From: Negaprion brevirostris
Lineage: Eukaryota
Length of the DNA: 64,000 nucleotides
Assembly (NCBI GenBank): GCA_030324005.1
Contig: JARDVH010000042.1
Span: 75,323,557-75,387,556 of the forward strand
Direction of reading: 5' to 3'
This document shows, piece by piece, positions 9,001 through 12,000 of the stretch; positions within the stretch are counted from its first letter, which is position 1, and every line of letters begins with the position of its first letter. Position numbers: made by a program.

Positions 9001-12000
9001 NNNAAGTTGGGAAAATTACTCTATTCTTTTTCTCTTAAAGAAACCAAAGAAGAACTGGAAGAGCTGACGCTCAGAATCAAGAGAACGGCAAACACAGTCC
9101 GAAATAAGCTAAAGAGTAAGTTGTTTCAGACAAGTCAATGAAATCGTTACCAGAAGACATGTATTTAACATGACTCATGAAAACCAGAGGGGATACAGGG
9201 TTGTAAAAATAGGTTATCATTTGAAGGGTTAGTAGAAGCAGATCCAATAACTTTCTGAAGAAAATTGGATAAATATTTGAAAAGGAATAAAAATTTGCTG
9301 GGCTGTTTGGGAAAAAGCACACTTTAAACTGACCCCAGTCTGGCTGTTACAAAGGGCCTTAATCTATAGTTTGGAGTTATAAATTTATGGAGGAGATAAA
9401 GGATGGACAATGGTCTGTGTCATGATCTGTAGTTATTTAAATCCTCAGCCCTTTTAAAAACAAAAATAAACCTAGATTGCAGTTATCACTGAGTGAATTA
9501 AACCACTCTGCTGGAGTGCATTGATTTATAGGTTATCTGGTGCAGCTTAGAAAAAAAATAGCATCTGCTCCTGCAGCATCAATGGACTTAATTATTGACA
9601 TTTTCCAAGGGCATTTACTACAGTTAAGTCCATTATGAATGCTTGGGGTGTTTCAAAATGTTCTAAGTTGATTAGTCCCCCTCATTGAGATGAGTGCACA
9701 CTTTTATCAACAAGGAAATATTAATAGATTAGCTGTTTTGATGCGATTACTGAATAGAAGTTTGTGCTTAGAATGTGCTGACCACTTGGGATTTAAAATC
9801 TTTGTTTTATGAGTGAGAGTGCTATTAGATTGTTAGAAATTTAACTTTTTCAGCTGCTGAGGTCTGTCTTTAATGGACACCTGAGTGAATGACTATGGAG
9901 TATAGAGGGTATGAGGTGGCATGGAGAGGACATGGGGAGTGTAAGGGGGTATGAAAGTCTATGGCGTGGAAGGGCATTGGGTATGAGGTTGCATGGGGTG
10001 TATAAGGGGTCATGGAGGTGTGAGGGAGTAGTGGGGCATGCGGTAGCATGGAGAGATATAAGTCAAAGGCTAGAGGATTGAACAGTCTTTTATAAAACTG
10101 AGTCAAAATCTCAGGACCAAGACAGGCCTTCCAATCAACCTGCCTTGGTACTCCCCATGACTGCCTTTAAACTGCCTCAGAGGTGACAGGCCCAACTCAA
10201 TCATGCCCCATGTCCTTGGAGAGAAAATTGCATGTGATGGCCTTTATATTGAGGTGGGTCGAGCTACATCTCATGAGCTTTATGCAGGTAAACTGTAGTT
10301 GCTAGCACAATGTTCATGAAAGAGTGCATCATTGACAAAATGCTAATGTCAGAAATCTGGAAATGGTAGTTGGGTGTAGAGGAGGAAGGATGATTTTTGC
10401 TAATTTTTTGCTTCCAGTAGCAGGTGTTTTCTTTTGTCTCCAGGCTAGGAAACTGTAAATTGCTGTTTACTGAATTAATACATAAACCAGTCAAATAAAC
10501 AAAAAATAGATGTACACAGTGCAACCGCAGAATGTAGCAGTTTGCGAAGAGGAACGATGTGAACAACGGTGGTCTATTTAATGCCAAAGCTGCTTCCCAC
10601 GTTAACATAGTAACATCAGCGATAACAAGACAACATTGGAACTCTTTGAGATCCACAGAAGGATGAACCAGGGTTGTATCTTGGCACCAACATTCTTCGA
10701 CATATTCCTTGCTGCTGTCATGTGTCAGCAGATTATTTAAATGATGTCTACTTGCATACCAGAACTGACAAAAAAACTGTTCATTCTTGCTTGCCTGACA
10801 TCCAAGACTTAAGTGTACCAAGTTTTCATTAGGGAGTTTTCTATGCTAGTGATTTTGTACAAGGATTCCATATCGAACATCTTTTGCAGAAAATAGACAA
10901 ACTCTCCCATATCTGCAAAGAGTTTGGTTTGACAATCTGCATCAGGAAGATGAATGTCATGGAACATGACCTCGCTATACAACCATCAATCAGCAATGAT
11001 ACTCAAAGCTGGAGATTATTGACAGTTCCACATCTCTAAGTTCTACAATTGTATCAAACTGTCACTTGACGCTGAAATCAACATGTACATTGTAAAAGCT
11101 GCAGCTATGTCCAAGTTGAATGAAACAACAACATGATGTTGAACTTAAGTGCCAGTCGATTAAGCCTGCGGTCGCAATGCATACCTCTACAGTAGCGAGA
11201 ACTGGACAACATATGCTAGTCAGGAGAAAAGGCTGAACAATTTCCATTTTTGCAGTTTCAGATATAGGCATTTCTAGAACAAGACTGCCAACTCAGAAGT
11301 TCTGGAGTATGCTAATTCCAACAACTTACACTTCTTATTAACAACGACATCAGCAACATCCACTGGGTATAAGGTTTTTGTGGCGAACTGGTCAATGGCC
11401 CACAATACCCATACCTCTGTCGGACACTGTAAGCAGAATATGAAAATGACAAAAATCATCACTTGCAATTGTCTATTCGGAGGAGCATTGGAAGAAACCA
11501 GGAGAACCAGAAAGCTCTGTTGGCTGAAAACAGGCTCTCAAATCTATCAACCTCTCTGCCAACTGCCTTTATCTGCAACAAGTGTGGCAGAGGCCACTCT
11601 ACCAGAAAGGGCATCCTGAGCCACACTAGATGATTAACTGTTACGACTGGGATGGGAGGAGTGCAAAGCTTTTCTAGTCCCATAAGTGTAAATGTTCTAT
11701 TCACGTGCCAAAATGGCCTGTTGTTCAAACTAGAATAATGGAGACTTAACCAGGCTTGGACTAATAGTCACTATAGTTGCCTAAAAATTCTTTCCAAAGG
11801 ACCTTTGCTGTGATGGAGAACAGCACAAGATTAGTGTCCTTGGGATCTCTCCCACATCTCAACTTCTCAGGTTTCCAATTACAGATGGGCTGTACTGAGT
11901 TGAGGATTCCTAGAAAGATACTGATAATTACACTGAATTTTAGGCAAGTCAGTGAGAGAGCAAGTTGAACAGACTTCTCCTTCCATCTCTGCACATAGGA

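What the first reader, a model, noticed from the sequence alone, without database searches (positions are those of the whole stretch)
9041..9115. Orphan intact syntaxin exon between the upstream 3' UTR and NXNL2
Seen: a 75-nt phase 1-1 exon with good splice sites and no stops, encoding an Habc helix of plasma-membrane syntaxins with mixed STX1-like (TKEELEEL, TAN) and STX3-like (LT, VRNKLK) residues. No neighbouring syntaxin exons were found, and I recall no syntaxin at the vertebrate SPIN1-NXNL2-S1PR3 locus. It begins 37 nt after a 100-N gap. Options: a misplaced contig (most likely), a duplicated or captured gene fragment with intron flanks, or a frame-preserving exon available to read-through transcripts.
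Basis: partly seen in the sequence, partly recalled or inferred. Interest (0 to 1): 0.65.

Follow-up and report, generated by a model that had tools for sequence, protein, structure and literature searches.

The report
Stray shark syntaxin-2 exon, probably misplaced
A single intact exon of the shark syntaxin-2 gene sits alone on a small gap-bounded piece of a fragmented assembly just upstream of NXNL2, most likely because that piece was put in the wrong place.

Summary
Window 9041-9115 (+) is a 75-nt open exon between an AG acceptor and a GTAAGT donor. Its 24 whole codons match residues 70-93 of syntaxin-2-like [Mustelus asterias] at 24 of 24. They also match residues 71-94 of syntaxin-1A in solved structures.

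It is a syntaxin-2 (STX2) exon, not an STX1/STX3 mixture. All 17 cartilaginous-fish STX2 sequences examined carry the same LTL motif at the aligned position.

No other syntaxin exon lies in the 64 kb. tblastn gives one hit at E 3e-9, the next at E 1.8. A profile search hits 1 of 4270 open segments.

The exon lies on a 3.76-kb contig (9004-12765) between two N runs, 4.5 kb upstream of a confirmed two-exon NXNL2. STX2 and NXNL2 lie on different sequences in 11 of 12 species compared, including 3 of 3 cartilaginous fishes.

Best reading, confidence about 0.6: a misplaced contig carrying the real STX2 exon. Main rival, about 0.3: a real duplicated STX2 fragment. The decisive tests need the rest of the assembly, its reads or another shark's DNA, none of which these tools reach. 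Interest is low.

The parts
9041..9115 (+). 75-nt internal coding exon of syntaxin-2 (STX2), phase 1-1. It encodes residues 70-93 plus the split codons 69 and 94 of the 288-aa shark protein, inside the Habc (Syntaxin N-terminal) domain.
   Evidence: 24 of 24 identical to P0003, syntaxin-2-like [Mustelus asterias]. tblastn E 3.2e-9. Profile positions 69-94, E 3.6e-6. Syntaxin-1A residues 71-94 in PDB chains. Pfam Syntaxin covers P0003 residues 27-180.
9020..9040 (+). Pyrimidine-rich tract ending in the acceptor AG (9039-9040).
   Evidence: Read directly. Identity to P0003 starts exactly after it.
9116..9121 (+). Consensus splice donor GTAAGT.
   Evidence: Read directly. Identity to P0003 stops exactly before it.
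8904..9003 (.). 100-N run, the upstream boundary of the exon-bearing contig. Not filled.
9004..12765 (.). 3,762-bp contig carrying the exon. Apart from the exon it has no recognisable coding content.
   Evidence: blastn against the window finds only an internal inverted repeat. The 11 ORFs of 70 aa or more that I tested gave no Pfam hit at or above its curated cut-off. No Rfam family or tRNA.
11635..11757 (.). One arm of a 123-nt inverted repeat (89% identical) inside the contig. The other arm is at 12269-12391. Probably two copies of a short interspersed element (inference).
12766..12821 (.). 56-N run, the downstream boundary of the exon-bearing contig and the join to the contig that carries NXNL2 exon 1. 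Not filled.
13616..13917 (+). Context: NXNL2 coding exon 1, from the ATG to a GTAAGT donor.
   Evidence: Pfam Thioredoxin_8 E 1.2e-17. 95 of 97 candidates at E<=1e-10, the named ones mostly nucleoredoxin-like protein 2; best is the Chiloscyllium punctatum cluster at 94%.
26935..27106 (+). Context: NXNL2 coding exon 2, through the TGA stop.
   Evidence: Thioredoxin_8 profile positions 69-94 continue the exon-1 match, at E 0.0033, below the curated cut-off.

Best explanation
The exon is the shark's own syntaxin-2 exon, encoding residues 69-94 in the Habc domain. It lies on a 3.76-kb contig that the assembler or scaffolder put into a gap of the SPIN1?-NXNL2 scaffold instead of into the STX2 locus.

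Shown: the exon's identity and intactness, its isolation in the window, the N runs on both sides, and the lack of shared location between STX2 and NXNL2 in other cartilaginous fishes.

Inferred: that the placement is wrong, and therefore that the true STX2 locus of this assembly has a gap where these 25 codons belong. At this position the exon would have no function.
For: 1. Identity. 24 of 24 residues match Mustelus asterias syntaxin-2-like. Other cartilaginous-fish STX2 sequences score only 16-21 of 24 over this stretch (16 sequences). So this is a variable part of the protein, yet here it is kept exactly, with both splice sites and no stop. That is what a working exon of the real gene looks like.

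2. P0003 is an STX2 orthologue. Nearly all of the 120 listed hits are named syntaxin-2, syntaxin-2-like or epimorphin; tetrapod STX2 is 70-76% identical and a syntaxin-1B 64%.

3. The rest of the gene is absent. tblastn gives one hit at E 3.2e-9 and the next at 1.8. A profile built from 94 of the 120 homologues hits 1 of 4270 open segments at E 3.6e-6, the next at 3.2. In the Chiloscyllium punctatum draft a 292-aa STX2 protein comes from an 84,962-bp scaffold. By that measure, several of the later exons should lie in the 55 kb downstream of this exon if the gene were here.

4. The contig is bounded by N runs on both sides. The window is very fragmented: 19 N runs, 2,320 N in 64 kb.

5. Location in other species. 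By my reading of the 'longest_contig' columns, STX2 and NXNL2 are on different sequences in Narcine bancroftii (321,486,706 vs 494,489,450 bp). The same holds for Callorhinchus milii (24,702,275 vs 139,202,109) and the C. punctatum draft (84,962 vs 2,705,371). Overall they differ in 11 of 12 species that carry a contig length in both lists.

6. Precedent. Passages of PMC4580222 describe a proven misjoin between two linkage groups at a sized 19-bp gap in a good short-read fish draft. They also estimate about 200-1000 misassemblies in that assembly.
Against: 1. The downstream join to the NXNL2 exon-1 contig is a 56-N run. It belongs with the odd-sized runs (10, 10, 90, 371, 56, 521, 10, 52) and not with the ten fixed 100-N runs. 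If odd sizes are read-pair distance estimates (my inference), some read pairs did link this contig to NXNL2.

2. The contig shares no repeat with the rest of the window that could explain a false link.

3. A 59-nt inverted copy of NXNL2 exon 1 with 4 mismatches lies at 13232-13290. So small fragment duplications may really occur in this region.

This is the 1 of 12 species that does not differ, on a very large chromosome.

5. No selachian chromosome-level comparison was possible.

6. Nothing here shows that the STX2 locus of this assembly lacks the exon.
Confidence: 0.6

Rival explanations
1. A real, unprocessed gene fragment. A few kilobases of the STX2 gene (one exon with its intron flanks) were copied by a segmental or repair-mediated duplication into the region upstream of NXNL2, where they sit as a non-functional pseudo-exon.
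For: The exon keeps its intron flanks and splice sites, so it is a genomic rather than a processed copy. The join to the NXNL2 contig is an odd-sized 56-N run. Another small duplicated fragment, an inverted 59-nt piece of NXNL2 exon 1 at 93%, lies 4 kb away. No repeat shared with the rest of the window explains a false scaffold link.
Against: There is no amino-acid change against the Mustelus orthologue, in a stretch where shark orders differ at 3-4 of 24 positions. The frame and both splice sites are untouched. A copy free of selection would have to be very young. A short-read assembler would probably have collapsed so young a copy with its parent. Both ends are hidden in N runs, so no junction is visible.
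Confidence: 0.3
2. A whole syntaxin gene (STX2 or an extra paralogue) really lies here, with its other exons hidden in gaps or outside the window and NXNL2 nested in an intron.
For: The exon is on the same strand as NXNL2. 2,320 bases of the window are N. Shark introns can be long (general knowledge).
Against: No second exon appears in 9 kb upstream or 55 kb downstream by tblastn or profile search. A 292-aa STX2 protein comes from an 84,962-bp scaffold in C. punctatum. The peptide equals the ordinary STX2 orthologue, not a divergent paralogue. STX2 and NXNL2 are on different sequences in 3 of 3 cartilaginous fishes compared.
Confidence: 0.04
3. A captured exon in use. The symmetric (phase 1-1) 75-nt exon is spliced into read-through or alternative 5' transcripts of the neighbouring genes.
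For: Consensus acceptor and donor, a frame-preserving length, the same strand as NXNL2 and 4.5 kb upstream of its ATG.
Against: No protein of 80-2000 aa other than the STX2 cluster holds this peptide (1 hit among 57 candidates). None of the 95 listed NXNL2 relatives of 55-175 aa was flagged with a syntaxin domain. NXNL2 exon 1 carries its own ATG, and I looked for no acceptor upstream of it. This reading also requires the placement to be real in the first place.
Confidence: 0.03
4. The contig is foreign DNA from another shark species or sample that was mixed into the assembly.
For: The only exact protein match is to a named species, Mustelus asterias, and the window's own species is not known to me.
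Against: NXNL2 exon 1 is 94% identical to the Chiloscyllium cluster, and Mustelus STX2 is 93% identical to Chiloscyllium STX2. Both genes are therefore compatible with one carcharhiniform-like source. The contig is not human-like: mammalian STX2 scores only 13-17 of 24 over this peptide.
Confidence: 0.03

Closest known systems
Syntaxin-2 (STX2, epimorphin) of elasmobranchs, e.g. syntaxin-2-like [Mustelus asterias], P0003, 288 aa
   Same: Residues 70-93 are identical at 24 of 24, and the split codons 69 and 94 are compatible. All 17 cartilaginous-fish STX2 sequences examined share LTL at the aligned position, and 15 of 17 share VRNKLK.
   Different: Only this one exon is present. The remaining residues of the Syntaxin domain, the SNARE motif (P0003 227-278) and the membrane anchor have no counterpart in the window.
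Syntaxin-1A N-terminal Habc domain (PDB 1BR0, 1EZ3 and full-length chains such as 9OJZ_G)
   Same: The peptide aligns end to end with residues 71-94 of syntaxin-1A, E 2.6e-4, 18 of 24 identical by my count of the printed alignment. From recall, this is the first part of helix Hb.
   Different: It is less similar than shark STX2 (18 vs 24 of 24). Full-length P0003 is 64% identical to a syntaxin-1B against 70-76% to tetrapod STX2.
Scaffold misjoins at short sized gaps in short-read vertebrate drafts (Metriaclima zebra v0, PMC4580222; passages read)
   Same: A small contig in a highly gapped scaffold, joined across a short N run to sequence that in related species lies on another chromosome.
   Different: In that paper the misjoin was proven with a linkage map, mate pairs and PacBio reads. 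Here no reads, map or second assembly could be consulted.
Processed pseudogene or retrocopy
   Same: An isolated piece of a gene away from its parent locus.
   Different: A retrocopy lacks introns and joins neighbouring exons. Here the identity stops exactly at an AG and a GTAAGT, and the flanking frame shows no similarity to residues 58-69 or 94-105 of P0003.

Membership tests
Syntaxin-2 (STX2) orthologue group: is the exon an STX2 exon? | Sequence falls in the Syntaxin N-terminal (Habc) domain, Pfam PF00804 | tested here: met
   24 of 24 match to P0003 residues 70-93, and PF00804 covers P0003 residues 27-180 at E 1.1e-39. The 24-aa peptide alone gives 0 Pfam families because it is too short.
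Syntaxin-2 (STX2) orthologue group: is the exon an STX2 exon? | Closer to STX2 orthologues than to STX1A, STX1B or STX3 | tested here: met
   Exon level: 16-24 of 24 with the 17 cartilaginous-fish STX2 sequences, 17 with a syntaxin-1B and 15-16 with two arthropod syntaxin-1-type proteins. Tetrapod STX2 scores only 13-17, so the exon alone would not settle it. The full-length carrier P0003 does: 70-76% to tetrapod STX2 against 64% to syntaxin-1B. No STX3 sequence was among the 120 listed, and I built no tree.
Syntaxin-2 (STX2) orthologue group: is the exon an STX2 exon? | Exon boundaries coincide with those of the gene | tested here: inconclusive
   Identity begins and ends exactly at the AG and the GTAAGT, and the split codons fit K69 and I94. 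No gene structure of any STX2 could be consulted.
Complete syntaxin gene at this locus | SNARE motif and transmembrane-anchor exons, and the other Habc exons, nearby on the same strand | tested here: not met
   tblastn: 1 hit at E 3.2e-9, the next at E 1.8. Profile search: 1 of 4270 segments, the next at E 3.2.
Complete syntaxin gene at this locus | STX2 lies on the same chromosome or scaffold as NXNL2 in related species | tested here: not met
   Different contig lengths in 3 of 3 cartilaginous fishes and 11 of 12 species overall; the same only in Phyllobates terribilis. This is an indirect measure based on cluster 'longest_contig' values. For draft scaffolds, a different scaffold does not prove a different chromosome.
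Assembly or scaffolding misplacement | Foreign piece delimited by gaps on both sides | tested here: met
   N runs at 8904-9003 and 12766-12821.
Assembly or scaffolding misplacement | The true locus in the same assembly lacks exactly this piece, and reads do not span the joins | not testable with these tools
Processed pseudogene | Neighbouring exons fused without introns | tested here: not met
   Similarity is limited to one exon flanked by splice signals.
Transposon-carried gene fragment | Transposon protein or terminal repeats around the fragment | tested here: inconclusive
   None of the 11 tested ORFs of the contig has a Pfam hit at or above its curated cut-off. The only repeat is an internal 123-nt inverted pair 2.5 kb downstream of the exon. 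The upstream side is hidden by the N run.

The most novel reading that the evidence does not exclude
The placement is real. A young, unprocessed copy of one STX2 exon with its splice sites lies 4.5 kb upstream of NXNL2 on the same strand. Being 75 nt and phase 1-1, it could be spliced in frame into read-through transcripts. That would be a caught-in-the-act case of exon shuffling, donating a syntaxin Habc helix segment.
Probability: 0.04. Interest if true: 0.45.

Novelty: not a real feature. Interest (0 to 1): 0.1.

Why it matters
If the contig is misplaced, this is housekeeping. The STX2 model of this assembly would be short by 25 codons. Annotators should also not build the exon into NXNL2 or read-through models, or infer a new syntaxin at this locus.

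If the fragment is really there, it is a minor example of gene-fragment duplication in a shark. Only the unlikely case that it is spliced into neighbouring transcripts would interest people who study exon shuffling.

Tried and rejected
1. Pfam on the 24-aa peptide gave 0 families; the peptide is too short to be informative.

I repeated it at the same tool with the unaltered 45-aa open frame 9004-9138 that contains the exon.

The five members of that cluster, their accessions and their species therefore stay unseen.

A regex for a recalled spindlin C-terminal motif found nothing in any frame. This is weak, because the motif comes from memory.

5. Rfam at gathering thresholds gave 0 matches and ARAGORN 0 tRNAs over the whole window, so no recognisable tRNA-derived repeat marks the contig ends.

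6. Pfam on 10 more ORFs of the contig gave only sub-threshold chance hits.

7. Literature. For 'syntaxin 2/STX2/exon/shark', 34 papers held at least 3 of the 4 terms; I saw the listing of 10 and none was relevant by title or abstract start. For 'NXNL2' plus 'syntaxin', 7 papers held both terms and 6 were listed; none concerns a shared locus by title. These two searches are the only basis for saying I found nothing in print. One search listed PMC4256071 and PMC4580222; of these I read only passages of PMC4580222.

8. Rejected readings: processed pseudogene, whole gene present, and human contamination. The reasons are given under the rivals and the membership tests.

9. Not used, because they could not bear on placement: structure prediction, fold search, complex prediction, the protein atlas and the representative-protein search.
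Full report
**What is there**

Window 9041-9115 (+) is a 75-nt stretch. It is preceded by a pyrimidine-rich tract ending in AG (9039-9040) and followed by GTAAGT (9116-9121). Its 24 whole codons (9043-9114) read TKEELEELTLRIKRTANTVRNKLK without a stop.

The frame stays open from the gap edge at 9004 to a TGA at 9139-9141, 45 codons in all. Similarity to any protein is confined to the 24 exon codons.

**Is it more than chance?**

An open frame of 25 codons is not significant by itself; the similarity is.
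- Against all solved structures, 11 of the 13 sequences listed at E<=10 are syntaxins (ten syntaxin-1A constructs and squid s-syntaxin). The best is E 2.6e-4, aligned end to end with syntaxin-1A residues 71-94. The other two are apolipoprotein A-IV at E 2.6 and 5.7.
- By my count of the printed alignment, 18 of 24 residues equal syntaxin-1A.
- The peptide alone is too short for Pfam (0 families).

**Which syntaxin**

I therefore sent the unaltered 45-aa open frame 9004-9138 and asked for longer proteins. Among 57 candidates, one cluster passed: P0003, syntaxin-2-like [Mustelus asterias], 288 aa, identical at 24 of 24 over residues 70-93. In P0003 residue 69 is K and residue 94 is I, which fit the split codons xAA and Axx. 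P0003 has the Syntaxin domain at 27-180 and the SNARE domain at 227-278, so the exon lies in the Habc region. That it is the start of helix Hb is from recall.

Searching with P0003 gave 3962 proteins at E<=1e-20 among 7981 candidates, of which the best 120 are listed.
- Nearly all of the 120 are named syntaxin-2, syntaxin-2-like or epimorphin.
- The exceptions are one Anopheles t-SNARE protein, one syntaxin-1B, one mite syntaxin-1A, a few 'hypothetical' entries and one unnamed entry.
- Tetrapod STX2 is 70-76% identical, and the syntaxin-1B is 64%.

P0003 is therefore the shark STX2 orthologue.

Over the 24 exon residues:
- the other 16 cartilaginous-fish STX2 sequences score 16-21 of 24;
- all 17, counting P0003, share LTL at the aligned position, and 15 of 17 share VRNKLK.

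This stretch varies between shark orders, so the exact match to Mustelus points to a carcharhiniform-like source. The contig is not human-like: mammalian STX2 scores 13-17 of 24.

**Is the exon alone?**

Yes, within the window.
- tblastn of P0003 against the window gives one hit at 9040-9114, E 3.2e-9. Everything else is at E 1.8 or worse.
- A profile built from 94 of the 120 homologues (those 280-292 aa long) was searched against all 4270 stop-to-stop segments of 8 aa or more in six frames. It hit one segment, E 3.6e-6, profile positions 69-94. The next best is E 3.2.
- At the DNA level the exon region is single-copy in the window.
- It is not a processed copy, because the match ends at splice signals and the flanks show no similarity to the neighbouring exons.

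**Surroundings**

The window has 19 N runs totalling 2,320 bases: ten of exactly 100, one of 200, and eight of odd sizes (10, 10, 90, 371, 56, 521, 10, 52). I did not fill or look up any of them.

The exon lies on a 3,762-bp contig, 9004-12765, between a 100-N run (8904-9003) and a 56-N run (12766-12821).
- The contig shares no repeat with the rest of the window and has one internal 123-nt inverted repeat.
- None of the 11 ORFs I tested has a Pfam hit at or above its curated cut-off.
- It has no Rfam family or tRNA.

NXNL2 lies downstream on the same strand: exon 1 at 13616-13917 and exon 2 at 26935-27106.
- Exon 1 hits Thioredoxin_8 at E 1.2e-17.
- Searched alone, exon 1 gives 95 of 97 candidates at E<=1e-10. 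The named ones are mostly nucleoredoxin-like protein 2, and the best is the Chiloscyllium punctatum cluster at 94%.

Whether the sequence upstream of 8904 is the SPIN1 3' UTR could not be checked.

**Could STX2 really lie next to NXNL2?**

I therefore compared the 'longest_contig' columns of the NXNL2 and STX2 searches, species by species and by eye.

| Species | STX2 (bp) | NXNL2 (bp) |
|---|---|---|
| Narcine bancroftii | 321,486,706 | 494,489,450 |
| Callorhinchus milii | 24,702,275 | 139,202,109 |
| Chiloscyllium punctatum (draft) | 84,962 | 2,705,371 |

The two genes also differ in Latimeria, Amia, Ambystoma, Emydura, Carettochelys, Alligator mississippiensis, Eudromia and Calypte. Only Phyllobates terribilis shows the same length for both (1,240,528,919 bp), a very large chromosome. 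In total, 11 of 12 species differ.

Caveats:
- The value belongs to a 90% cluster, not always to one species.
- Draft scaffolds that differ need not be on different chromosomes.
- No chromosome-level comparison within sharks proper was possible, because their NXNL2 proteins are merged into one cluster.

From recall, human STX2 is on 12q24 and NXNL2 on 9q22.

In the C. punctatum draft a 292-aa STX2 protein comes from an 84,962-bp scaffold. If the gene were here, several later exons should fall in the 55 kb downstream of the exon. They do not.

**Best explanation (confidence about 0.6)**

The contig carries the animal's real STX2 exon and was put in the wrong scaffold position. The exon looks like a working one: exact identity to the orthologue in a variable stretch, both splice sites intact. 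The rest of the gene is absent, the piece is delimited by N runs in a very fragmented assembly, and the two genes are not linked in related species.

Misjoins at short sized gaps are documented for short-read vertebrate drafts. Passages of PMC4580222 describe a proven join between two linkage groups at a 19-bp gap, and estimate about 200-1000 misassemblies in one good draft.

**What speaks against it**

- The 56-N join to the NXNL2 contig belongs to the odd-sized class. This may mean that read pairs estimated that distance (inference).
- No shared repeat explains a false link.
- A 59-nt inverted copy of NXNL2 exon 1 with four mismatches lies nearby, so small real duplications may occur here.
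- Phyllobates is the one species in which the contig lengths agree.

The main rival, a real and young unprocessed STX2 fragment (about 0.3), therefore cannot be dismissed. The other rivals are each a few per cent: a whole gene hidden in gaps, a captured exon in use, and foreign shark DNA.

**What stayed unchecked**

- The rest of the assembly, its reads and any other shark's DNA.
- The members of the P0003 cluster.
- Gene structures of STX2.
- The identity of the upstream UTR.

The closed collections (metagenome and viral contigs) and paper supplements were not needed and were not consulted. Two literature searches found nothing linking NXNL2 and a syntaxin locus; I saw the listings only.

**Verdict**

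Its orphan position is most likely an assembly artefact and otherwise a trivial gene fragment. Interest is low (0.1).

Noticed in passing
window 13232-13290 versus 13678-13736: A 59-nt inverted copy (93%, 4 mismatches) of NXNL2 exon-1 coding sequence, the part encoding ...EALKNKVVGIYFSGGWCPP. It lies 326 nt upstream of the NXNL2 ATG. If both arms are transcribed they pair into one long stem: RNA fold of 13220-13750 gives -251.6 kcal/mol, z -9.9 against 100 shuffles. It could be a real small inverted duplication or a local assembly artefact.
   Followed up: partly
window, all 19 N runs: The N runs fall into two classes: ten of exactly 100 plus one of 200, and eight of odd sizes (10, 10, 90, 371, 56, 521, 10, 52). 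This suggests two kinds of join, unknown-size and estimated-size (inference). NXNL2 exons 1 and 2 are separated by three 100-N joins yet remain in the right order and orientation.
   Followed up: partly
window 11635-11757 and 12269-12391: A 123-nt inverted repeat (89%) inside the exon-bearing contig, probably two copies of a short interspersed element. No tRNA or Rfam match.
   Followed up: partly
window 25767-26264 (-), 36748-37035 (-), 45083-45325 (-), 24324-24587 (-): Open frames that look by eye like reverse-transcriptase fragments of LINE-type retrotransposons (for example ...LLFVMYINDL..., ...WADKWQ...), several inside the NXNL2 intron. Not tested against Pfam.
   Followed up: no
window 61349-62239 (+): The longest open frame of the window (296 codons, interrupted by a 100-N run), proline-rich at its start. 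Its first 194 residues have no Pfam match. Nature unknown.
   Followed up: partly
window 32123-32533 (-), 40573-40850 (-), 48567-48873 (+), 22229-22526 (+): Several open frames share a recurring translated motif (for example ...EETHRDTGRTCKLHTDS...NLGPWHCEAAMLTT...). This points to a dispersed repeat family present at least four times in the window. Seen by eye.
   Followed up: no
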